Shown here piece after piece: positions 49,133 to 58,281 of a stretch of 64,000 bases of DNA (the stretch's first letter is position 1; each line of letters starts with the position of its first letter). Source of the DNA: Clostridia bacterium (GTDB lineage Bacteria > Bacillota > Clostridia > Oscillospirales > Feifaniaceae); contig JAFRSP010000018.1 of NCBI GenBank assembly GCA_017427525.1, positions 1,684-65,683 on the forward strand, read 5' to 3'. The position numbers were made by a program, and so were the translations under genes. The notes under the pieces are model-generated. The model was not told where the DNA came from and ran no database searches. It worked only from the letters and a program-made list of their open reading frames with translations.

Positions 49133-51757
49133 TCACCCGTTCGGCCAGAGGCGCTTCGTATCCCCATAGGGCAGGGAGATGCGGTAAACCGTATATCGGT
49201 GACTGCTTCGCGCATCCGGCCAAGCAAGCGTCAGACTGTCGTTTGTGATCGACTGGAGAAATAGGCTGCGCCGCACCGTGGAGAAATCCTCTCCGGGGAG
49301 CGGGCAGAGGAAATGAAGAATGCCCTCCCGCTCACTCAGCCTGTAAATCCCCCGTACACCGTCGCGCTGCCCGACAAAATAGCAGGTCTGTCCCCTGCGT
49401 CCGATCAGAAAGGCGCGCTCCAGTATGGGGGAAAAGCCTGCGTCGGTCAGATAGCCAAGGCTACCCTCCCAACCGGAGGAGGCATATGCATAGTGCCAAG
49501 TCGTGACCAAAAACCCGTTTTTTCCTTCATCCAGCACCGTGATCTCCCCCATAGCATCCGGCATATCGAACAGGGTGACTCGCTCCTCCCCTTCTATGAC
49601 GGACAGCGTGATCCGATAGCGGTAGCCCGCGGTATTCTCCAATTTTTCCAAACGGCGCTCTTCGACCAGGGTTCGTCGGCTGTCTTCATAAAACACATGT
49701 TCCTCTACGCCGCCCGCCATCAGTTCGGTATAGCGCTTGGCAAGCGGGGCCGGTTCATAGCGGTAGGAAACGGGAGCCCACTCTGCCGCAGGCGGAAGTC
49801 CCGTGAAGGGATTCTGCTCTTCCGGACCGGCAGCGCAAAGACAGGAAGTTCCCTCTTCATCCTTTCCTTCATACACCGTGATCCGCAGGGAGAGATCGGC
49901 TGAACCAAGCGAATCGGTTTCTCCCCAGAGACATCCGGTTCCCTTTCCGGTTTCCCTCTGCGGCGTTGCCTTCACATTCAGAGCGAGCGTGAGATAGAAC
50001 TCTCCCTCCTCAAGAATCGAAACGCTGCCCAGACTGTAATCAAGCAGTCCCAGCGCATCGCCGCGATAGAGCAGATCTTTCAGCAAAGCGTCTGCGTAGG
50101 TCAGCGCCGCCTTCTCTCTGTCGCTTCCGATCGGCAAAACAGGGTAAAGTGCATAGGGCGGTGTGGGAACCTCCGCCACAGCCAGCTGACCGTCCCTCTG
50201 GGCAACCTGCACGACCGTGAAGAGCGGAGTGTCGCCGAAGAGGCGCTCGCCGGTGCTGTGCGGCAACAGATAGGCCGTTCCGGTAGAGGTGTCGGCCACA
50301 AGACAGCCCTCCTCCTGCCGTTCCAGCAGCAGAAGTCCTGCCCCGGAAAGTGCAAGCTGCGCGGCATTGTCGAGCACGGGACGCCGACTCTCCTCCAGGG
50401 CGTTCAGCAGAATGTATTCTCTCTCCCGGAGCCCGTACCAGCCGGGATTCTCCCCAAAGGGCGCCGAAAAAATCGCATCATACACAAAGGGCAGCTGCTC
50501 GTTTCCTTCAAGATCCACGGCGCCCCATAGTCCGTTTTTACGCACTACAAGGGCCCTTGTGTCCTCCGTCTCATACCAGAGAGTCAAGGAAGGCTGCTCT
50601 CCCGAGAGCGCTGCGGACCCATCTTCCGTCTGGTAGGTAAAATGCCCCACGTCCATATAGGCTCCGATCGCCTCATATTCATAGGGAAGACACATTTTCC
50701 CGCTTTTCAAATCCATGACGCCCCAAGCACCGTCTACTCTGCGCAGCGCGATGAGCATGTCTTCAATCAGCGCTGGGCCGCCGTCTTCCCCTCCGAAGCT
50801 ATAGCCGTGCCCCACCGCCAAACAATCCTGATCCGTCAGAGGGAGAATCCCCCCTTCCGAGGCCATCCAAAGACGCTGCATCCCGATCGGATCGGTCGTC
50901 ACCACCAAATCGGCGTCTGTTTCAGGGAACTCTATGGCTCGATACTGCGCGCTCAGCAGCAGCACGCCCTCTATGCTGTAGAGTCCCAAACTACCGTCCG
51001 GTCCCCGATAGAGATATCCATAGTGACAGGGCGTGAAGCTGCCCGGCATGCTTGGAAAAAGCGCGCCGGATTTCAGAGAAAACAGCGTCTGTCCCTGCTC
51101 GTCTTCTACCGGAAATGCGGGAGCGAACAGAAACGGCTCCTGCCTGACTGCCTCGCTCAGCAAGAACCCATATCCGTTCACGAGTGCGGCAATCGTCTCT
51201 TCGGCATAGTTCTTTGTCTGCAGCGCGAGCTTCATCCCTTCCTCTTCCCATTGGATGAAACAGCCAAAAAGCATCTGCGCGTTTTCCAGAGGAACCAGCA
51301 CCTCTCCCCCGCGCCGCAGCAGCGTTCCCTGTACGCGATTGTATAAGGGTTCTTCTCCAATCACGCAGATTTTTCCGCCTTCCTGAAGCCGCACAAGCTC
51401 CCTGCCTGCCGCGTCCGAAACCAAAAGAGAAAGCGCGCCGTTCTGCTCGGCCTGCGAAACCTCGATTTCCGGAAGCAGAGAATCCATCAGCGCCGCGTCG
51501 ACATAGAGGATGCCATCTTCCCGATACAGAAGACGCTCCGGCGCGGGAACCGGCTGCAGATCGATCGTGAGCTCCGGTTCCAGATACCCCGAGGAGGGTT
51601 GAACTTCCCTGAGCCACGGCATCACAAGGGCGGCAATCGCCGCTCCAACCGTTAAAACTGTTATAAACACCAACAGCCAACTTGGGATCGGTTCTCCTTT
51701 GAGTCTCTTTTTCTTCTGTTCCAAGCCAGGTTTCCCTCCTCTCACATGGTTTTTCAT
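49133..51757 (-). CDS. Large membrane-anchored WG-repeat (KWG-like) protein of unknown function
   Basis: N-terminal TM helix (WLLVFITVLTVGAAIAALV). WG-type repeats such as DGAWGVMDLKSGKMCLPYEYEAI and NGLWGAVDLEGNEQLPFVYDAI. Confidence 0.6.
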   Translation of the reverse strand: MKNHVRGGKPGLEQKKKRLKGEPIPSWLLVFITVLTVGAAIAALVMPWLREVQPSSGYLEPELTIDLQPVPAPERLLYREDGILYVDAALMDSLLPEIEVSQAEQNGALSLLVSDAAGRELVRLQEGGKICVIGEEPLYNRVQGTLLRRGGEVLVPLENAQMLFGCFIQWEEEGMKLALQTKNYAEETIAALVNGYGFLLSEAVRQEPFLFAPAFPVEDEQGQTLFSLKSGALFPSMPGSFTPCHYGYLYRGPDGSLGLYSIEGVLLLSAQYRAIEFPETDADLVVTTDPIGMQRLWMASEGGILPLTDQDCLAVGHGYSFGGEDGGPALIEDMLIALRRVDGAWGVMDLKSGKMCLPYEYEAIGAYMDVGHFTYQTEDGSAALSGEQPSLTLWYETEDTRALVVRKNGLWGAVDLEGNEQLPFVYDAIFSAPFGENPGWYGLREREYILLNALEESRRPVLDNAAQLALSGAGLLLLERQEEGCLVADTSTGTAYLLPHSTGERLFGDTPLFTVVQVAQRDGQLAVAEVPTPPYALYPVLPIGSDREKAALTYADALLKDLLYRGDALGLLDYSLGSVSILEEGEFYLTLALNVKATPQRETGKGTGCLWGETDSLGSADLSLRITVYEGKDEEGTSCLCAAGPEEQNPFTGLPPAAEWAPVSYRYEPAPLAKRYTELMAGGVEEHVFYEDSRRTLVEERRLEKLENTAGYRYRITLSVIEGEERVTLFDMPDAMGEITVLDEGKNGFLVTTWHYAYASSGWEGSLGYLTDAGFSPILERAFLIGRRGQTCYFVGQRDGVRGIYRLSEREGILHFLCPLPGEDFSTVRRSLFLQSITNDSLTLAWPDARSSHRYTVYRISLPYGDTKRLWPNG

Positions 51758-53114: not shown

Positions 53115-53585
53115 ATGGGCGAAAAGGTGTCGACCAAGACCATTGCACAAAACAAAAAAGCCTATCACGACTACTTTGTGGAAGAGCGCTTTGAAGCGGG
53201 CATCTCGCTTGCCGGAACCGAAGTGAAATCCTTGCGGGCCGGCAGAGTCAACCTGAAGGACTGCTTCTGCACCGTGGAAGACGGAGAACTGGTCGTCATC
53301 GGCATGCATATCAGCCCCTATGAACAGGGCAACATCTTCAATAAAGACCCGCTCCGCAAGCGTGTGCTGCTCATGCACAAACGCGAGATCATGCGGCTGT
53401 ATGGCCTGGTGAAGCAGGACGGCTACGCCATCATCCCGCTGTCGCTCTATTTCAAGGGCTCTCATGTCAAGGTCGAGCTCGGTCTGTGCAAGGGCAAGCG
53501 GCAGCATGACAAGCGCGAAGCCATGGCGCGGCGCGACGCAAAGCGCGAGATCGACCGTGCGATGAAGCAGCGCAACGTCCGCTGA
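53115..53585 (+). CDS. smpB: SsrA-binding protein SmpB
   Basis: [12 protein letters not shown]...GTEVKSLR...; C-terminal basic tail, 156 aa. Confidence 0.97.
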
Positions 53586-53662
53586 GCACGGCGCGGCAGG
53601 TTCGTCTCCTGCGCAGGTTTTTGTCCGCTCCGATTCCCTTTTCAACCGGCACTTTACAACAC

Positions 53663-54009
53663 GGGGGTGCAATGGTTTCGACGGGGGTCTTGAAGCGGGA
53701 GAAGCAAGCCGAGTTGCGAGGACTCGTTAAACATCGCACCCTATAAATGAAAGAACAACGCTAACGTTGCTCTCGCGGCCTAACTAGGCCGCCGTCTGCC
53801 CTGGGAGGACCACGGCCCGGGTGTCAGGCGTCGTCAGTGGTGCACGTGAGGCGGGTAAGCTTTGCCCCGCCCATGAATCATGAAGCTACCGAATGGAGCA
53901 GCCGGCCGCCTGGCGGCTCAACTGGGGAATCTCAAATACGCGGCTAAGCTTGTAGAAACTCCCGTGAACGGGCTTTCGGACAGGAGTTCGATTCTCCTCA
54001 CCTCCACCA
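53663..54009 (+). ncRNA. ssrA: tmRNA (SsrA)
   Basis: 5' GGGGGTG pairs with 3' CACCTCC-A-CCA, including the G3.U alanine identity pair. T-arm is GGAG-TTCGATT-CTCC. Internal tag frame AAG AAC AAC GCT AAC GTT GCT CTC GCG GCC TAA (53751-53783) ends in ...NVALAA*. Lies directly downstream of smpB. Confidence 0.93.
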
Positions 54010-54018
54010 ATGCAAGAT

Positions 54019-54066
54019 AATCCGAACCTTAGGCCAATCGGCCAGGGGTTCGGATTTCTTGTTTTT
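54019..54066 (+). terminator. Terminator of ssrA
   Basis: AATCCGAACC (54019-28) / GGTTCGGATT (54047-56) followed by TCTTGTTTTT. Confidence 0.7.
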
Positions 54067-54203
54067 ATACGGGATATTACGTTATAGTTTTTGATTCGAT
54101 CAATATGAATTCAGACGGAATCGCCATGAAAAGCCGTATTGCCGCGATCCCGCATTGTTTAGATCGTCTCAACCTTTATGGCTTTTATGGTTTTTTGCAA
54201 AGA

Positions 54204-54233
54204 TTGACATGCATTGCCTTTTAAGGTTATGAT
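54204..54233 (+). promoter_or_regulatory. Strong sigma-A-type promoter for the 2-TM orphan gene
   Basis: TTGACA (54204-09), 18 nt, TATGAT (54228-33). Confidence 0.55.
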
Positions 54234-54278
54234 TCGAGCAGAAAAACATAACCATATTGTCTTAAAGAAGGTTCCGGG

Positions 54279-54995
54279 ATGAAATCAAAGATCACTTCGC
54301 CTAGATCAAAAAAACTATACACCGCCAACAATAAGATATATTGCGTTCTAGTCGTTTTATTAATTGTCGTTATCACGGTCATTTTGGCAATTGAAAACCG
54401 TTCGATAGTTTGGTCAGAAACGGCAAATTCCATCCTTACAGGTATTCTGAGTGGATTGTTGTCATCTGTTGTTGTTGCATGGTTTATTGATTTGGCAACC
54501 TGCAAAAGGAAAAATGATCATATTGAGCATCTGGTCAGTCGTGATCATGAGTCTTTAAAACTGTGGATCAATGACTTTTTTCAGTCAATGTCAAATTGTT
54601 TGCAACCCCAAAGCATTCAAACTTCCAGAAATATCGAATCTCTATACGATGAATTCGTGGAACAAATAGGCAGGGTCGATCATGCAAAGGTTTTGATCGG
54701 TGATGATGATTATTATAATGGTTTAGTTGGCCTATATGTGAGCATCAATCTTATTATTTCAACAGTTGATAAGCTTCTGTCGGGCGAAGAAAAGTCATAC
54801 ATGCTGCAAAAATACAGTGACCTCTCTTCTTTTTTAACCTTAAGCAAGTCGATGTCTGATTTGAGGGACAATCTTTTTAATAACGGAAACCACCGCTATG
54901 ATTTCATTTTTGTAGGCATATGTGATTTTCTTTCGACTATTCTGCCGTTTGCAGACTTTTTAAACAAGAAGTATTCCACTGCCAAACAGGAATAA
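54279..54995 (+). CDS. Orphan 2-TM membrane protein with a helical C-terminal domain (no recognisable family)
   Basis: Two N-terminal TM helices (about aa 20-38 and 51-72) followed by about 165 aa of predicted helices. Very low GC compared with the flanks. Confidence 0.6.
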   Translation: MKSKITSPRSKKLYTANNKIYCVLVVLLIVVITVILAIENRSIVWSETANSILTGILSGLLSSVVVAWFIDLATCKRKNDHIEHLVSRDHESLKLWINDFFQSMSNCLQPQSIQTSRNIESLYDEFVEQIGRVDHAKVLIGDDDYYNGLVGLYVSINLIISTVDKLLSGEEKSYMLQKYSDLSSFLTLSKSMSDLRDNLFNNGNHRYDFIFVGICDFLSTILPFADFLNKKYSTAKQE

Positions 54996-55081
54996 ATCCA
55001 TTGACAGGATTTCCTCCGATAAGGCGAACAACGGAAATGAACCCGTATCCATACCAACAGACAGCAGTTTCAATGCAACAA

Positions 55082-55121
55082 ACTCAGAGGCAAGGCATGC
55101 GCCTTGTCTCTGAGTTTTTCT
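55082..55121 (+). terminator. Rho-independent terminator insulating the 2-TM gene
   Basis: 15-bp stem ACTCAGAGGCAAGGC / GCCTTGTCTCTGAGT (one G.U pair), 4-nt loop, T5. Confidence 0.8.
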
Positions 55122-55238
55122 GTCGTCAACGGCATCTGACGTCTGATTCATCCAACGATTTCCATCTTCGTCCCATTTGTCCCTATCATTCTTTCACCCA
55201 TTCAATATGATGAAAGCAATGCCTCTCAGACAAAACGA

Positions 55239-55267
55239 TTGAAAAGACTTCTTTTCAATGCTATAGT
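55239..55267 (+). promoter_or_regulatory. Promoter for the Nudix-like/DpnI-like pair
   Basis: TTGAAA (55239-44), 17 nt, TGcTATAGT extended -10 (55262-67). Confidence 0.55.
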
Positions 55268-55305
55268 AGCATCAGAAGTTGCAGCGAAACAGAGGCCTGA
55301 CCGAT

Positions 55306-56661
55306 ATGCATAAGGCCGCGACGGGAGCGAATGTCATGACCCAATTTCAGTCTTGGATAGATGCCGTCAATGCCAACAACGGCGTGATTCAAATTGCCCT
55401 GACTGTTTTTCAGATCCTCATCACCTTTTTTGGATTTTTGCTGATCACTCGAAAGCAAATCCACAGGGACCGGTATGAGGAACGCCTCAATCAACTGAAA
55501 AAAACAGTAGACGCCCTGACCGTCAGCCGCAACGATTTTGCGGAAAGGGCGCTGGCACTGTATCGGGAGCATTTTCGCTCCGACCCCGATTGCAGCGAGT
55601 TTGTGGAGCATGGGCACCTGATCTATCGCAATGGCTGGGTCAACTGCAAGGATTCACAGGGGCGATTTTATCCCCTCTCCTCCTTCACCCCCAAGATCGC
55701 CTCCCGGTATACCCCGCCGGCGCCGAAAAAGAACCACACCCTTCCAGATCAGCAGGAAAGCTATGCCGATAACGTGAAGTTTTACCTGGGAAAGACCCTG
55801 ATGGATCTCCCGCTCTATGGGCTGAATGAGGTCCGCCTGCATCCCGACGAAATCGAAATCACGGTGAATTTGGGCTCCTATTTTGACTTTTACAACACCT
55901 GCGAATACAGGGGATATGAAATGGCCTATGCCCGCAGAATCCTGGGGAAAACGGCCGTTTCCGCCAAAACGCTTCCCGCGCGCTACGGCAAAAACAACGA
56001 GGGGCTGAATCTTTTCAACACTAGCAACCGCTTCCCCGGCATCGGCATCAACACCGTGACCATTTTGAAAAACGTGCTGGACGATCAGGAGCCTGACCGC
56101 GATCCGCCCATGCGCGACTTCTTCCTGATGCACAAACGCTCCAAACAGGTGGCCGAGGGAATCGGAAACTATCACGTGATACCCGCAGGTTCCTATCAGC
56201 CGCTGAAGGACTATCTGGACCACAGCGACGAAACCCGTGCGGAAACCATGAAGGATACCGTGCTGCGGGAATTCGGCGAAGAGATCAAGGACTATGAGGA
56301 ATTCATCGATCTAAACACCTCGCAGCTCCTGCAAAACCTGGATCGACTGCTCGACCCCTATTTTCTGGGCATCGGGTTTGAGCCGCTGAACACCAAGACG
56401 GAGGTTCTCTCTGCGCTGATTCTCGACCTGGAACAGCCGAAAATCCGCGCGCTGTTCCAAGGACAGCGTCACTATTCACAGCTCCAGACGCTGCTTGACC
56501 GAAACAACAATTACGAGGGAGAAATCCACCTCTGCCCGCTGAATTGCAGCACCCTTCGGCAATATGAAAACGACTTCCGTTCCACCGCTTCCATGAAGGA
56601 GATCATGCGGATTTTGCAGCTGGAGGAAAACCGTGCCTTTTTCCATGTGCAAAACATCTGA
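55306..56661 (+). CDS. Membrane-anchored protein with a C-terminal Nudix-fold-like domain carrying a degenerate Nudix box; function unknown
   Basis: One N-terminal TM helix (VIQIALTVFQILITFFGFLLIT). FLMHKRSKQ...YHVIPAGS...E-x7-REFGEEI (56188-56283) matches the E-x7-RE-U-x-EE core of the Nudix box, but there is an insertion after the Gly. Start is uncertain (TTG 55279, ATG 55306 or ATG 55336). Confidence 0.55.
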   Translation: MHKAATGANVMTQFQSWIDAVNANNGVIQIALTVFQILITFFGFLLITRKQIHRDRYEERLNQLKKTVDALTVSRNDFAERALALYREHFRSDPDCSEFVEHGHLIYRNGWVNCKDSQGRFYPLSSFTPKIASRYTPPAPKKNHTLPDQQESYADNVKFYLGKTLMDLPLYGLNEVRLHPDEIEITVNLGSYFDFYNTCEYRGYEMAYARRILGKTAVSAKTLPARYGKNNEGLNLFNTSNRFPGIGINTVTILKNVLDDQEPDRDPPMRDFFLMHKRSKQVAEGIGNYHVIPAGSYQPLKDYLDHSDETRAETMKDTVLREFGEEIKDYEEFIDLNTSQLLQNLDRLLDPYFLGIGFEPLNTKTEVLSALILDLEQPKIRALFQGQRHYSQLQTLLDRNNNYEGEIHLCPLNCSTLRQYENDFRSTASMKEIMRILQLEENRAFFHVQNI

Positions 56662-56786
56662 AACAGCTGCAGGCGACTGTGCCATTCTTTTAGAATCCGG
56701 ATCGTGTTTCCCTGTTGTCTTCTCCTTTTTGTCGGCAACGAGACTCTCGCGCTTCCTTTCGATTCTTTCGGTTTTAGGGGGCAGCT

Positions 56787-57558
56787 ATGAATTTACAAAT
56801 GGACTCCTCTTTAGCGGAAAAATACAACAGCGCTTCTCAAAAGGCCCGTATCGTAACCGAGTCCTAGGTAGCAGCGAACATGTTCTGTCCCCTGTGCGGG
56901 AATCTTCATATTTCGCATTTTGAGAATAACAGGCCAGTTGCAGATTACTTCTGTCCGCACTGCGGAAATCAGTTTGAACTCAAAAGCAAAAACGGCACGG
57001 CACTCAAAAAAATAGCGGACGGCGCTTACTCGACCATGATCGAAAGAATCACCAGTTTTGATCATCCGGACTTCTTGTTCATGTCATATACAAAATCTGA
57101 TTGGATTGTCCGAAACCTCTTTTTTTGTCCCCAAGCATTTCTTTACGCCTGATATCATCGAAAAGAGACCGCCTCTTCGCCCAACTGCAAGGAGGGCAGG
57201 ATGGATCGGTTGTAATATCAATCTAAGCCAAATACCCGCAACAGGAAGAATCCCCATCATCGAAAATGGGGTCAAAATTGATAAAACCATTGTGATAAAA
57301 CGGGCTTCCGCTGCAAATGCCTTGAATACTACGGATATCCTTGCGCGCGGTTGGCTGTTGGATACGTTGATGTGTGTTGAAAAAATCGGCAGGGTTTCTT
57401 TTGCATTATCTGAAGTATATGCATTTGAGGACGAGTTGGCTTTGAAACACCCTGACAATCATAACATAAGGGCAAAGATCAGGCAGCAACTCCAGGTTCT
57501 GAGAGACAGAGGGATCCTCGAGTTTACCGGTTTGGGAAAATACCGGAGGGTGCAATAA
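56787..57558 (+). pseudogene. DpnI / Dam-replacing-protein family methyl-directed (GmATC) restriction endonuclease, disrupted by an in-frame TAG (56865-56867) and a +1 frameshift in a T7 run (57120-57126)
   Basis: The reconstructed 256-aa product aligns end to end with my memory of S. pneumoniae DpnI (254 aa): SQKARI.TE, CP.CGN...HFENNRPVAD..C.HC...FELKSK, GAY.TM, RKPL.PTARRAGWIGCNI.LSQ.P..GRI and KIRQQLQ.LRD..I.EF.G.GKYR. Listed ORFs 56880..57152 and 57058..57558 are the two halves. Confidence 0.8.
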
Positions 57559-57583
57559 GAACAGCCTCCCTTTCCCTTTTTCA

Positions 57584-57625
57584 ACAAAAACAGCGTCTGC
57601 AAAAGCAGACGCTGTTCCTTTTTTG
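57584..57625. terminator. Bidirectional terminator between the DpnI-like gene and trkA
   Basis: ACAGCGTCTGC-AAAA-GCAGACGCTGT, with an A-rich 5' flank and TCCTTTTTTG 3' flank. Confidence 0.8.
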
Positions 57626-57633
57626 CAAACGCA

Positions 57634-58281
57634 TCAGGTATGGAAGCACTTTTGAATGGCCTTGAGGTCCCCCAAAACCAGGATGGTCTTGTCGCGGTCC
57701 AGCGCGGTCTCCGGCGTGATCGAAAGATTGACGGTTCCGTTCTCCTTCACCGCCATGATGTTGATTCCGAATTGCTTGCGGATATCGATCTGGCCCACTG
57801 TTTTGCCGACCCAGTCTTCGGGAATGGTGAGTTCAAAAATGGCGTGCTCCTCATCCAGCTTGATGTAGTCCAGAATATGGGTGGAGGAGTAGCAGATCGC
57901 AGCCCACTGCGCCATTTGCTTTTCGGGATTGATCACCTCGTCTGCACCGTTGCGCAGTAAAAACTTCGCCTGCACCTCGCGGTTGGCGCGGGATACCACA
58001 TAGCGTCCGCCGAGCTCCTTAAGCAGCGACGTGGTCTCGAGCGAGCTTTGGAATTCGTCTGCAATGGTGACGATGCAGACGTCAAAGCTGCTGATTCCCA
58101 GCGACTGCAGAAAGGTTTCGTTTGTACTGTCTCCGATCTGCGCATCCGTGACAAAGGGCAGGATGGCATTGATCCGATCTTCGTTTCTGTCGACCGCCAT
58201 AATCTGATGGCCGAGTTCGCTCAACTCCTTTGCAAGCATGAAGCCGAAATTGTCGAGACCGATTAACAGAATGGATTTCAT
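57634..58281 (-). CDS. trkA: TrkA/KtrA-type K+ uptake regulatory subunit (RCK_N + RCK_C)
   Basis: 215 aa with a Rossmann-like N-terminus (ILLIGLDNFG, where the second Gly of GxGxxG is replaced by Asp) and an RCK_C domain. Adjacent to trkH. Confidence 0.85.
   Translation of the reverse strand: MKSILLIGLDNFGFMLAKELSELGHQIMAVDRNEDRINAILPFVTDAQIGDSTNETFLQSLGISSFDVCIVTIADEFQSSLETTSLLKELGGRYVVSRANREVQAKFLLRNGADEVINPEKQMAQWAAICYSSTHILDYIKLDEEHAIFELTIPEDWVGKTVGQIDIRKQFGINIMAVKENGTVNLSITPETALDRDKTILVLGDLKAIQKCFHT

What the first reader, a model, noticed from the sequence alone, without database searches (positions are those of the whole stretch)
55306..56661. Membrane-anchored protein with a degenerate Nudix box (E-x7-REFGEE): possible nucleotide-directed effector or signal degrader
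Seen: a single N-terminal TM helix (about 55384-55449) is followed by a roughly 200-aa region of unknown fold. After that comes a segment laid out like a Nudix fold (GIGINTVTIL...FFLMHKRSKQ...YHVIPAGS...ETMKDTVLREFGEEIKDY). Residues E322-x7-R330-E-F-G-E-E reproduce the catalytic core of the Nudix box GX5EX7REUXEEXGU. The Gly-to-Glu spacing is expanded by an insertion of about 12 residues. The gene has its own TTGAAA-17-TGcTATAGT promoter. No terminator separates it from the DpnI-like gene 125 nt downstream, so the two are probably co-transcribed. Established: Nudix domains recur in nucleotide-centred conflict systems, where they degrade second messengers or modified nucleotides. A TM-tethered version paired with a methyl-dependent nuclease is not an architecture I recognise. 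This is an inference from motif reading only.
Basis: partly seen in the sequence, partly recalled or inferred. Interest (0 to 1): 0.7.

Follow-up and report, generated by a model that had tools for sequence, protein, structure and literature searches.

The report
Membrane-anchored bacterial NUDT22-like Nudix hydrolase
The gene encodes a membrane-tethered enzyme of the Nudix type that is a distant bacterial relative of human NUDT22. It belongs to a large unannotated family whose swappable front ends (membrane helix, TIR, HEPN, HD and others) suggest a role in phage defence rather than housekeeping, though that role is not shown.

Summary
ORF 55306-56661 is a real gene under purifying selection. 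It has one N-terminal TM helix, its own promoter, and an invariant REFGEE motif.

The Nudix reading is confirmed by structure, not by sequence models. Pfam, NCBIfam, PADLOC and PDB sequence searches find nothing. An AlphaFold model (pLDDT 89) matches human NUDT22 over both domains (Foldseek E 1e-9), and every other hit is a Nudix protein. Profile-profile comparison with NUDT22 gives 86-93% probability. The "200 aa of unknown fold" is therefore largely the NUDT22-type N-terminal domain.

The family is large: 1,726 clusters at 50% identity. It is sporadic: 121 of 185,579 species genomes. It is unannotated. About 60% of representatives carry the TM helix. In others that slot holds TIR, HEPN, HD-CE, conflict-type NTase, Metallophos or an endonuclease, and some swaps are recent.

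The link to DpnI is not supported. DpnI is a pseudogene in this window, is intact in a sister genome, and is absent from the 27 other TM-type loci surveyed.

TM+Nudix has a precedent in the CBASS effector Cap16, but no CD-NTase is present here.

Best reading: a stand-alone, catalytically competent NDP-X hydrolase/sensor of a conflict-associated family. Its substrate and any defence role are unproven.

The parts
55239..55267 (+). Sigma-70-like promoter: TTGAAA, 17-nt spacer, TG-extended TATAGT
   Evidence: One search gives 10 of 12 matches with TG before the -10. This is a consensus match only. The region holds 4 such sites against 5.0 expected by chance, so the call rests on position and the extended -10.
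55306..56661 (+). Gene for the membrane-anchored NUDT22-like Nudix protein (451 aa). Alternative in-frame starts are TTG at 55279 and ATG at 55336.
   Evidence: 40 homologs, the best non-self about 56% identical. AF2 pLDDT 89.4, pTM 0.86; 14 synonymous against 2 nonsynonymous codon differences versus the sister genome L009.
55384..55449 (+). Single N-terminal transmembrane helix (aa 27-48), predicted N-out/C-in
   Evidence: KD19 2.34, K/R 0 before and 5 after; a TM-like segment in 87 of 141 family representatives; modelled as part of one long helix, aa 25-73.
55450..55602 (+). Cytoplasmic helical stalk or linker (aa 49-99). It carries the conserved residues R75 and Y86.
   Evidence: helices 25-73, 75-89 and 94-102; conserved residues; homology with the TIR-fused relative P0035 begins at aa 66.
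55603..56022 (+). NUDT22-type N-terminal domain (about aa 100-239). Conserved residues are W111, P147, Y192 and C199-E200 (YFDFxxTCE).
   Evidence: Foldseek alignment of about 350 columns to NUDT22; hhalign places window aa 100 onward against NUDT22 residue 2 onward; conservation.
56023..56658 (+). Nudix-fold catalytic domain (about aa 240-451). Conserved residues are R242, G247, H276-x-R278, H290, P293-A-G295, E366 and E404-G405.
   Evidence: all significant structural hits are Nudix proteins; conservation.
56242..56286 (+). Nudix-box helix ETMKDTVLREFGEEI. The REFGEE core is at nt 56266-56283.
   Evidence: One search aligns TVLREFGEE to NUDT22 SVLQEICDE, pairing E322/E325/E326 with E189/D192/E193.
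56787..57558 (+). DpnI-like type IIM restriction gene, inactivated here by an in-frame TAG at 56865-56867 and a +1 frameshift near 57120. It is a neighbour, not a demonstrated partner.
   Evidence: the DpnI and DpnI_C hits are split over three ORF pieces; an intact 256-aa allele exists in L009..
57589..57616 (+). First terminator-like hairpin downstream of the gene (12-bp stem followed by a T-run)

Best explanation
**Shown**
- The gene encodes a protein with one N-terminal membrane helix, a helical stalk and a cytoplasmic two-domain module.
- That module is homologous in fold and, weakly, in sequence profile to human NUDT22, an atypical Nudix NDP-sugar pyrophosphatase.
- The metal-binding residues of the Nudix helix (R-E-x-x-E-E) and further acidic residues are conserved across a family of at least 1,700 sequence clusters.
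- The family is absent from Pfam, NCBIfam and PADLOC.
- The N-terminal slot is interchangeable. It is mostly a TM helix, and in other members it is TIR, HEPN, HD-CE, conflict-type NTase, Metallophos or an endonuclease.

**Inferred**
- The module binds and hydrolyses the pyrophosphate bond of an NDP-X compound at the inner face of the membrane. The substrate could be a nucleotide-sugar or an ADP-ribose/NAD-derived molecule.
- The protein works as a stand-alone component of a biological-conflict (anti-phage or anti-MGE) repertoire.
- In that reading the Nudix module is the constant ligand-recognising and ligand-consuming part. The N-terminal part is the output: here, membrane anchoring and possibly ligand-dependent oligomerisation that perturbs the membrane.
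- The protein does not depend on the neighbouring DpnI-like gene.
For: **Fold**
- The AF2 model has pLDDT 89.4 and pTM 0.86.
- Foldseek against the PDB puts NUDT22 (5r50, 5lor, 5lou) on top at E 1e-9 over about 350 columns, TM-score 0.63-0.65 normalised to the target. The next 40 or more hits are all Nudix.
- The BFVD top hits are also Nudix proteins.

**Sequence**
- hhalign of the family against a vertebrate NUDT22 alignment gives probability 86.5%, E 4.5e-6.
- With extended alignment it gives probability 93.2%, E 2.9e-7 over aa 100-448 against NUDT22 2-291. RSKQVAEG..HVIPAGSYQP aligns to [17 protein letters not shown], and REFGEE aligns to QEICDE.

**Conservation of catalytic residues:**

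**Purifying selection:** 14 synonymous against 2 nonsynonymous codon differences versus a sister genome.

**Topology:**

**Family size and rarity**
- 1,726 representatives at E<=1e-3.
- 121 loci in 185,579 species genomes.
- None in IMG/VR.

**Conflict signature**
- N-terminal TIR, HD-CE, NTase-conflict, HEPN_Swt1 and Metallophos, and a CBASS-type endonuclease and PDC models.
- P0172 (HEPN) and P0140 are 78% identical over the 384-aa core with unrelated N-termini.
- In P0035 a TIR replaces exactly the TM segment, aa 1-65.
- Fused members sit beside TA modules, other TIR genes, on a conjugative element, or in an AAA+/CYTH operon.

**Local context**
- The gene lies in a compositionally mosaic stretch just downstream of ssrA, beside a restriction gene and a low-GC orphan gene.

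**Precedents for TM plus nucleotide-binding domain effectors**
- Cap16 (TM-NUDIX) and Cam1 (PMC10419184; bioRxiv 10.1101/2025.11.13.688252).
Against: - No biochemical data exist and the substrate is unknown.
- For the TM-type members, which include the window's protein, the 2+2 flanking ORFs of 27 loci show no conserved partner and no enrichment of defence genes. The neighbours are mostly housekeeping genes such as HAD, PEPCK, KsgA and LysR.
- The gene's GC content (about 53%) is host-like, unlike its two neighbours.
- A 56%-identical ortholog also lies a few kb downstream of smpB in another Oscillospiraceae genome. That could indicate vertical inheritance rather than island cargo.
- No signal-generating enzyme (CD-NTase, TIR or cyclase) was detected in the 64-kb window.
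- Recognisable effector fusions are a small minority, 8 of 141 representatives. Most of them are closest to TM-less members of the family rather than to TM-type ones.
- The sequence link to NUDT22 is weak on its own: HMMER finds nothing.
- A single TM helix may be nothing more than an anchor.
Confidence: 0.5

Rival explanations
1. Housekeeping or accessory metabolic enzyme. A membrane-tethered NDP-sugar pyrophosphatase (UDP-glucose/galactose type, like NUDT22) trims nucleotide-sugar pools at the membrane for cell-envelope polysaccharide or glycolipid synthesis. It would have no role in conflict.
For: - The closest structural relative, NUDT22, is a UDP-glucose/galactose hydrolase (names given; PMC10101856).
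- Neighbours of TM-type members are ordinary metabolic genes, with no defence enrichment.
- One locus lies beside Wzy_C, phosphoglucomutase and a Big_1 surface protein.
- A HAD_2 phosphatase lies directly upstream in 5 of 27 loci.
- The gene's GC content is host-like, and an ortholog sits in a similar position near smpB.
Against: - The distribution is very sporadic, 121 of 185,579 species genomes. That is unlike a core envelope function.
- No glycosyltransferase or envelope cluster is conserved around it.
- The same module is repeatedly and recently fused to TIR, HEPN, HD-CE, NTase-conflict, Metallophos or an endonuclease. This is hard to reconcile with sugar-nucleotide housekeeping.
- Here it lies between a restriction gene and a foreign low-GC gene.
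Confidence: 0.27
2. Cap16-like effector working in trans. It would be an orphan CBASS/Thoeris-type membrane effector whose Nudix domain binds a cyclic or ADPR-derived second messenger made by a synthase encoded elsewhere in the genome. Oligomerisation would then disrupt the membrane.
For: - The TM+NUDIX architecture matches the description of CBASS Cap16, which oligomerises and damages the inner membrane (PMC10419184; bioRxiv 10.1101/2025.11.13.688252).
- The set of effector domains swapped in the N-terminal slot (TM, TIR, HEPN, endonuclease) mirrors those fused to SAVED and CARF sensors.
- One TIR-fused member lies beside two CAP12-PCTIR_TIR genes.
Against: - No CD-NTase or other PADLOC signalling-synthase model hits any of the 95 ORFs flanking the 27 TM-type loci, nor any ORF in the 64-kb window.
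- No PADLOC model, CBASS effectors included, matches the shared core in 100 family members.
- Strict conservation of the catalytic residues suggests turnover rather than binding alone.
- Homology to Cap16 itself could not be tested because no sequence was at hand.
Confidence: 0.13
3. A Nudix 'signal or modified-nucleotide degrader' is co-transcribed with, and functionally paired to, the DpnI-like methyl-dependent nuclease. For example, it could remove methylated dATP or control the nuclease.
For: - Both genes are on the same strand with a 125-nt gap, and no terminator-like hairpin appears until after DpnI.
- The same gene order is present in a sister genome.
Against: - DpnI carries a nonsense codon and a frameshift here, while the Nudix gene stays under purifying selection.
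- No DpnI was seen next to the gene in the other homolog loci inspected individually, and it does not appear among the families reported for the 27-locus scans.
- The GC content of the two genes differs, about 53% against about 45%, which suggests separate acquisition.
Confidence: 0.05

Closest known systems
Human NUDT22 (UDP-glucose/galactose pyrophosphatase; PDB 5LOR, 5LOU, 5R50)
   Same: - Both have the two-domain architecture of an N-terminal beta-rich domain followed by a Nudix domain. The Foldseek superposition is full length (E 1e-9).
- The profile match spans both domains.
- Shared motifs are RS+QVAE...G...(V/I)P.G..(Q/E)P and an acidic E-x-x-(D/E)-E Nudix helix.
- Both have an expanded, non-canonical Nudix box and both escape Pfam NUDIX models (PMC5688067).
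   Different: - Sequence identity is only about 14-15% in the structural alignment and 21-26% in the profile alignments.
- HMMER detects no similarity.
- The bacterial protein adds a TM helix and stalk.
- It keeps the Arg of RE-x-x-EE, where human NUDT22 has Gln, and has a different insert before the helix.
- Its substrate is unknown.
CBASS effector Cap16 (TM-NUDIX)
   Same: - Both combine N-terminal transmembrane helices with a cytoplasmic Nudix domain.
- Cap16 belongs to a set of effectors in which a nucleotide-binding domain is combined with membrane-disrupting helices (PMC10419184; bioRxiv 10.1101/2025.11.13.688252).
   Different: - Cap16 is encoded next to a CD-NTase. Here none is adjacent, none is in the 64-kb window, and none is near the 27 TM-type loci.
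- No PADLOC model matches the core.
- Direct homology to Cap16 was not tested.
- The family shown here is NUDT22-like.
Cam1 and Csx23 (type III CRISPR membrane effectors: short TM helix plus cA4-binding domain)
   Same: Both have a single short N-terminal hydrophobic helix in front of a cytoplasmic nucleotide-binding domain. In those effectors the tetramers depolarise the membrane on ligand binding (bioRxiv 10.1101/2025.11.13.688252).
   Different: - The sensor domain is CARF-like, not Nudix.
- Those effectors depend on a CRISPR cyclase.
- This is an analogy of architecture only.
TRPM2 NUDT9-H domain ('chanzyme')
   Same: A Nudix domain coupled to a membrane output. In early-branching TRPM2 the domain both binds and hydrolyses ADP-ribose. 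These structures appear among the Foldseek hits (8sr7, 8sre, 8srh).
   Different: TRPM2 is a eukaryotic multi-pass channel from a different Nudix subfamily (NUDT9). The structural match covers only the Nudix core, with a TM-score of about 0.25 normalised to the query.

Membership tests
Nudix superfamily | Nudix alpha/beta/alpha fold | tested here: met
   The AF2 model (pLDDT 89.4) matches only Nudix structures in the PDB, and the top BFVD hits are Nudix proteins.
Nudix superfamily | Catalytic helix R-E-U-x-E-E with conserved metal-binding glutamates | tested here: met
   REFGEE is present. R321, E322, E325 and E326 are invariant in 24 sequences and conserved in at least 90% of 145 and 100 representatives.
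Nudix superfamily | Canonical 23-residue box GX5EX7REUXEEXGU with standard spacing, and recognition by the Pfam NUDIX model | tested here: not met
   - The G295-to-E313 spacing is 17 residues rather than 5.
- E313 is not conserved in the family.
- The trailing x-G-U is replaced: EEIKD here, EELLG in the family consensus.
- No Pfam or NCBIfam Nudix model hits at E<=1.
- NUDT22, an accepted Nudix enzyme, fails the same test (PMC5688067).
Nudix superfamily | Mg2+/Mn2+-dependent hydrolysis of a nucleoside diphosphate linked to X | not testable with these tools
   This needs an enzyme assay.
NUDT22-like subfamily | Two-domain architecture: a specific N-terminal domain packed on the Nudix domain | tested here: met
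   The Foldseek alignment covers about 350 columns across both domains, with a TM-score of 0.63-0.65 normalised to NUDT22. hhalign covers window aa 100-448 against NUDT22 2-291.
NUDT22-like subfamily | Significant sequence-profile relationship to NUDT22 orthologs | tested here: inconclusive
   hhalign gives probability 86.5% (E 4.5e-6) by default and 93.2% (E 2.9e-7) with extended alignment. These are pairwise E-values, not database-wide. HMMER is negative.
NUDT22-like subfamily | UDP-glucose/UDP-galactose hydrolase activity | not testable with these tools
   This needs biochemistry.
CBASS Cap16 (TM-NUDIX effector) | N-terminal TM segment(s) plus a C-terminal Nudix domain | tested here: met
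CBASS Cap16 (TM-NUDIX effector) | Encoded in an operon with a CD-NTase | tested here: not met
   No CD-NTase or other cyclase model hits the window ORFs or the 95 ORFs flanking the 27 TM-type loci.
CBASS Cap16 (TM-NUDIX effector) | Sequence homology to characterised Cap16 proteins | not tested
   No Cap16 sequence was available. PADLOC-DB v2 models do not match the core.
   The pair is seen only in this strain and its sister genome. DpnI is a pseudogene here. Neighbourhoods elsewhere are unrelated.
Known or candidate anti-phage systems (PADLOC-DB v2.0.0) | Match to any defence-protein HMM | tested here: not met
   There are 0 hits for the window protein at E<=1. Among 100 family members there are only single-member hits, through fused N-terminal domains.

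The most novel reading that the evidence does not exclude
The family is a previously unrecognised class of single-gene bacterial immune proteins. In it, a NUDT22-like Nudix module acts as a catalytic sensor and timer. It would bind an infection-derived NDP-X molecule, such as a phage nucleotide-sugar, an ADPR derivative or a capped RNA end. It would then switch on the N-terminal output: a pore-forming or depolarising TM helix in this protein, or TIR, HEPN, HD, NTase or an endonuclease in relatives. Hydrolysis of the ligand would reset it. A corollary is that human NUDT22, the outlier of the human Nudix family, would descend from a bacterial conflict-system module.
Probability: 0.2. Interest if true: 0.8.

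Novelty: new variant of a known kind. Interest (0 to 1): 0.55.

Why it matters
- It defines a large bacterial protein family (at least 1,700 clusters at 50% identity) that current domain and defence databases do not cover, and gives it a confident fold assignment.
- It provides the first bacterial relatives, as far as these searches show, of human NUDT22. NUDT22 is the phylogenetic outlier of the human Nudix enzymes and is of current interest in pyrimidine salvage and cancer.
- The swappable N-terminal slot (TM, TIR, HEPN, HD-CE, NTase, Metallophos, endonuclease) is the hallmark of sensor-effector proteins of bacterial immunity. The family is therefore a concrete, testable candidate for a new stand-alone defence module with a Nudix sensor. 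It would extend the single known TM-Nudix case, CBASS Cap16.
- If the protein is instead a plain membrane NDP-sugar hydrolase, the finding is a useful annotation but ordinary.

Tried and rejected
**Searches that gave no Nudix or defence hit**
- Pfam, NCBIfam, PADLOC, PHROGs and PDB-sequence searches of the protein and of a 24-sequence profile gave no Nudix or defence hit. The weak Pfam hit to DUF6261 (E 0.0017, below the gathering score, seen in 1 of 24 members) was discarded as chance.
- The IMG/VR scan with family patterns found no viral relatives.

**Tests for a conserved operon partner or defence context**
- Pfam and PADLOC counts on 95 flanking ORFs from 27 TM-type loci showed no conserved partner and no CD-NTase. 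The HAD_2 and PEPCK counts come partly from three syntenic loci (L015, L016, L018).
- The PADLOC inventory of the whole 64-kb window gave only generic weak hits (mad2, mad3, mad8, PD-T4-6) and no signalling synthase.

**Tests for island structure**
- A search for an att-like duplication of the ssrA 3' end, or another island boundary, found nothing. No integrase was seen between ssrA and trkA.

**Other searches**
- The Rfam scan of 53400-57800 found only the tmRNA. There is no riboswitch or leader RNA upstream of the gene.
- The NUDT22 structure paper (Carter et al. 2018) and the Cap16 paper (Duncan-Lowey et al. 2021) are not held in the library. Statements about NUDT22 residue roles and Cap16 details therefore rest on secondary sources or my own knowledge.
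- Homolog search for the upstream 238-aa gene found 9 unannotated relatives and gave no clue.

**Technical note**
- A first attempt at per-gene mismatch counting used a wrong coordinate offset. It was redone correctly.
Full report
**1. The observation**

The ORF at 55306-56661 (+) is present as described and encodes 451 aa from the ATG.
In ATG numbering the motif is E313-x7-R321-E322-F-G-E325-E326, at nt 56242-56283.
- A third in-frame start, the ATG at 55336 with GGGAG 8 nt upstream, matches the N-termini of homologs best.
- The hydrophobic segment at aa 27-48 (nt 55384-55449) has a 19-residue Kyte-Doolittle mean of 2.34. It has no K/R in the 15 residues before it and five after, so the bulk of the protein should be cytoplasmic.
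- The promoter TTGAAA-17-(TG)TATAGT is at 55239-55267. No terminator-like hairpin occurs before 57589-57616.
- All quoted peptide strings are in the translation.

One correction is needed. The DpnI-like gene that starts 125 nt downstream is broken in this window. The Pfam DpnI and DpnI_C hits and the PADLOC mREase_II hit are spread over three ORF pieces. Alignment to a near-identical genome shows a TGG-to-TAG change at 56865-56867 and a one-base insertion in a T-run near 57120.

**2. Is it a real, selected gene?**

- Forty homologs were found by word-indexed search, all unannotated and mostly from Oscillospiraceae/Bacillota MAGs.
- Against the sister genome GCA_016283055.1 (locus L009) the gene differs at 14 synonymous and only 2 nonsynonymous codons.
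- Over the same comparison the adjacent DpnI gene has accumulated a stop and a frameshift.
- The gene is therefore maintained by selection independently of DpnI.

**3. Is it a Nudix protein?**

Sequence models say nothing. There is no Pfam, NCBIfam, PADLOC or PDB-sequence hit for the protein or for a 24-member profile.

Structure prediction is decisive.
- The AlphaFold2 model built on the family alignment has mean pLDDT 89.4 and pTM 0.86.
- Foldseek against the PDB puts human NUDT22 first: 5r50, 5lor and 5lou at E 1.3e-9 to 8e-9, about 350 aligned columns, TM-score 0.62-0.65 normalised to NUDT22.
- The following hits are all Nudix proteins: TRPM2 NUDT9-H, NUDT12, NUDT5, NUDT15, NUDT16, NudC and others.
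- The viral library's top hits are likewise Nudix proteins.

I then verified the human NUDT22 sequence against the PDB, collected vertebrate orthologs and compared profiles.
- hhalign gives probability 86.5%, E 4.5e-6 by default.
- With an extended alignment it gives probability 93.2%, E 2.9e-7, covering window aa 100-448 against NUDT22 2-291.
- The aligned motifs are convincing by eye. FFLMHKRSKQVAEGIGNYHVIPAGSYQP pairs with [27 protein letters not shown].
- TVLREFGEE pairs with SVLQEICDE.
- FLGIGFEPLNTKTE pairs with LLGIARNETS...AE.

A helical stalk covers aa 49-99. The NUDT22-type N-terminal domain covers about aa 100-239.

NUDT22 itself has no Pfam domain in the precomputed annotation and 'lacks a conventional NUDIX box' (PMC5688067). 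The degenerate box and the expanded G-to-E spacing are thus family traits, not decay.

Conservation:
- R321, E322, E325 and E326 are invariant in 24 sequences.
- The same four are at least 90% conserved in 145 and in 100 distant representatives. So are R242, G247, H276, R278, P293, G295, G355, E366 and E404-G405.
- E313 (the 'E-x7') is not conserved.

**4. How big is the family and what does it look like?**

- A profile search of 1.84 billion cluster representatives gives 1,726 hits at E<=1e-3, 1,058 at E<=1e-10 and 403 at E<=1e-30.
- In one genome per species the family is rare, with 121 loci in 185,579 genomes. Full-length TM forms occur in Oscillospiraceae, Clostridia, Bacilli and Mollicutes. 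Shorter soluble forms occur in Lentzea and other Actinobacteria, Proteobacteria and others.
- None was found on IMG/VR viral contigs.

Architectures among 141 near-full-length representatives:

| N-terminal type | Representatives |
|---|---|
| TM-like segment | 87 |
| Extension with no recognisable domain | 34 |
| No extension | 12 |
| TIR_2 | 2 |
| HD-CE | 2 |
| NTase-conflict | 2 |
| HEPN_Swt1 | 1 |
| Metallophos | 1 |

PADLOC adds a CBASS-type endonuclease and three 'PDC' candidate-defence domains in single members.

The swaps are recent and precise.
- P0172 (HEPN) and P0140 share 78% identity over the 384-aa stalk-plus-core but have unrelated N-termini.
- P0035, which shares the window subgroup's 'DxxCSEF' signature, has a TIR domain exactly where the window protein has aa 1-65.

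**5. Genomic context**

In the window, the gene lies in a compositionally mosaic stretch directly downstream of smpB (53115-53585) and the tmRNA gene (53663-54009). Three genes there differ in GC content (DpnI identified):

| Gene | GC content |
|---|---|
| Orphan membrane protein, 54279-54995 | about 37% |
| Target gene | about 53%, host-like |
| DpnI remnant | about 45% |

- No att-like repeat and no integrase were found.

Around 27 TM-type loci from other genomes, I scanned the two ORFs on each side (95 ORFs in all).
- They show no conserved partner. HAD_2 appears five times, and PEPCK, KsgA and LysR three times each, partly from three syntenic loci (L015, L016, L018).
- They show no defence enrichment and no CD-NTase.
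- Loci inspected individually give the same picture.

Fused members sit in conflict-type settings.
- P0035 lies beside two CAP12-PCTIR_TIR genes and a nucleoside hydrolase.
- P0064 lies between MNT/HepT and PIN toxin-antitoxin genes and is followed by a tandem paralog.
- P0172 lies on a conjugative element.
- P0066 lies in an overlapping-gene operon with an AAA+ ATPase and a CYTH protein.

The 64-kb window contains no recognisable signal synthase.

**6. Interpretation**

Shown:
- A membrane-anchored, cytoplasm-facing, two-domain NUDT22-like Nudix module with an intact metal-binding helix.
- Membership of a large, sporadic, unannotated family with an interchangeable N-terminal slot.

Inferred:
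- It hydrolyses an NDP-X compound.
- The family operates in biological conflicts. The Nudix module would be the constant ligand-recognising and ligand-consuming part, and the N-terminal part the output.

For the TM form, the output could be simple localisation, or ligand-dependent oligomerisation that damages the membrane.
- Literature precedents for the second option are CBASS Cap16 (TM-NUDIX) and the CRISPR effector Cam1, a single short helix plus a sensor domain (PMC10419184; bioRxiv 10.1101/2025.11.13.688252).
- Strict conservation of the catalytic residues suggests turnover of the ligand. An analogy from my own knowledge is self-limiting ring-nuclease CARF domains. A second is the TRPM2 'chanzyme', whose structures appear among the Foldseek hits.

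The main rival is a plain membrane-proximal NDP-sugar hydrolase serving envelope metabolism. The housekeeping neighbourhoods of the TM-type members and the NUDT22 precedent (UDP-glucose to UMP plus Glc-1-P; PMC10101856) support it. The sporadic distribution and the domain swaps argue against it.

**7. Novelty and score**

- TM+Nudix as an effector architecture is known (Cap16), and Nudix domains in conflict systems are known (PMC9503650; PMC7159879).
- What appears new is this particular NUDT22-like lineage, its size, its absence from Pfam, NCBIfam and PADLOC, its stand-alone genomic behaviour, and its catalogue of N-terminal swaps.
- I rate it a new variant of a known kind, with interest 0.55.
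- The most novel reading not excluded is a single-gene immune sensor-effector with a catalytic Nudix sensor, ancestral to human NUDT22. I give it probability of about 0.2.

Noticed in passing
window 56787-57558: The DpnI-like type IIM restriction gene is a pseudogene in this window. It has TGG changed to TAG at 56865-56867 and a +1 T in a T-run near 57120. It is intact (256 aa) in the about 98.6%-identical genome GCA_016283055.1 (L009 10931-11701). The loss is therefore recent, or a sequencing error in a homopolymer combined with one SNP.
   Followed up: yes
window 54279-54995 (+): A low-GC (about 37%) gene sits between the tmRNA and the Nudix gene. It encodes a 238-aa protein with an N-terminal hydrophobic segment. 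It has only 9 homologs in 5.8 billion clusters, no domain hits, and its own TTGACA-18-TATGAT promoter-like site at 54204-54233.
   Followed up: partly
window 53115-54009: smpB is followed directly by the tmRNA gene (Rfam 167.7 bits). The foreign-looking genes begin just after the tmRNA 3' end, but no att-like repeat or integrase was found. ARAGORN's predicted tag peptide (ERTTLTLLSRPN) looks atypical and may be mis-framed.
   Followed up: partly
window 49133-51757 (-): The P-type cation ATPase gene differs from the sister genome at 28 synonymous and 21 nonsynonymous codons. This is a much higher nonsynonymous share than in smpB (12/0), trkA (5/1), trkH (4/1) or the target gene (14/2).
   Followed up: no
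L088 1555-4475: A TIR-fused family member (P0064, 543 aa) is immediately followed by a TM-less paralog of the same family (P0040, 405 aa). The pair is flanked by MNT/HepT and PIN toxin-antitoxin genes and a PDDEXK_9/AAA-ATPase_like gene.
   Followed up: partly
L093 1032-10810: An HD-CE-fused family member (P0066, 778 aa) overlaps an upstream AAA+ gene (Sigma54_activat/AAA_5) and a downstream CYTH gene. This suggests a multi-gene system. A 1,550-aa ORF with fused RNA polymerase beta/beta' domains lies just upstream.
   Followed up: no
L089 7633-13715: The HEPN_Swt1-fused member (P0172) lies on a conjugative element with a DUF87/TrwB-like ATPase and a Replic_Relax relaxase. Its core is 78% identical to P0140, which carries a different, unannotated N-terminal domain.
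   Followed up: partly
L015 4117-4794, L016 4332-5006, L018 3820-4512: An ORF of about 225 aa lies immediately upstream of the TM-Nudix gene in these three syntenic loci, with a roughly 590-aa ORF downstream. Across the 27 loci, HAD_2 matched 5 flanking ORFs and PEPCK 3. The scan does not say which, but these loci are the likely carriers. The pairing may be synteny or a weak metabolic link.
   Followed up: no
L082 7671-8684: Lentzea and many other Actinobacteria carry a soluble form of the same two-domain module, about 337 aa with no TM. It has no Pfam hit either. In L082 it lies beside IucA/IucC-like siderophore synthetase ORFs.
   Followed up: partly
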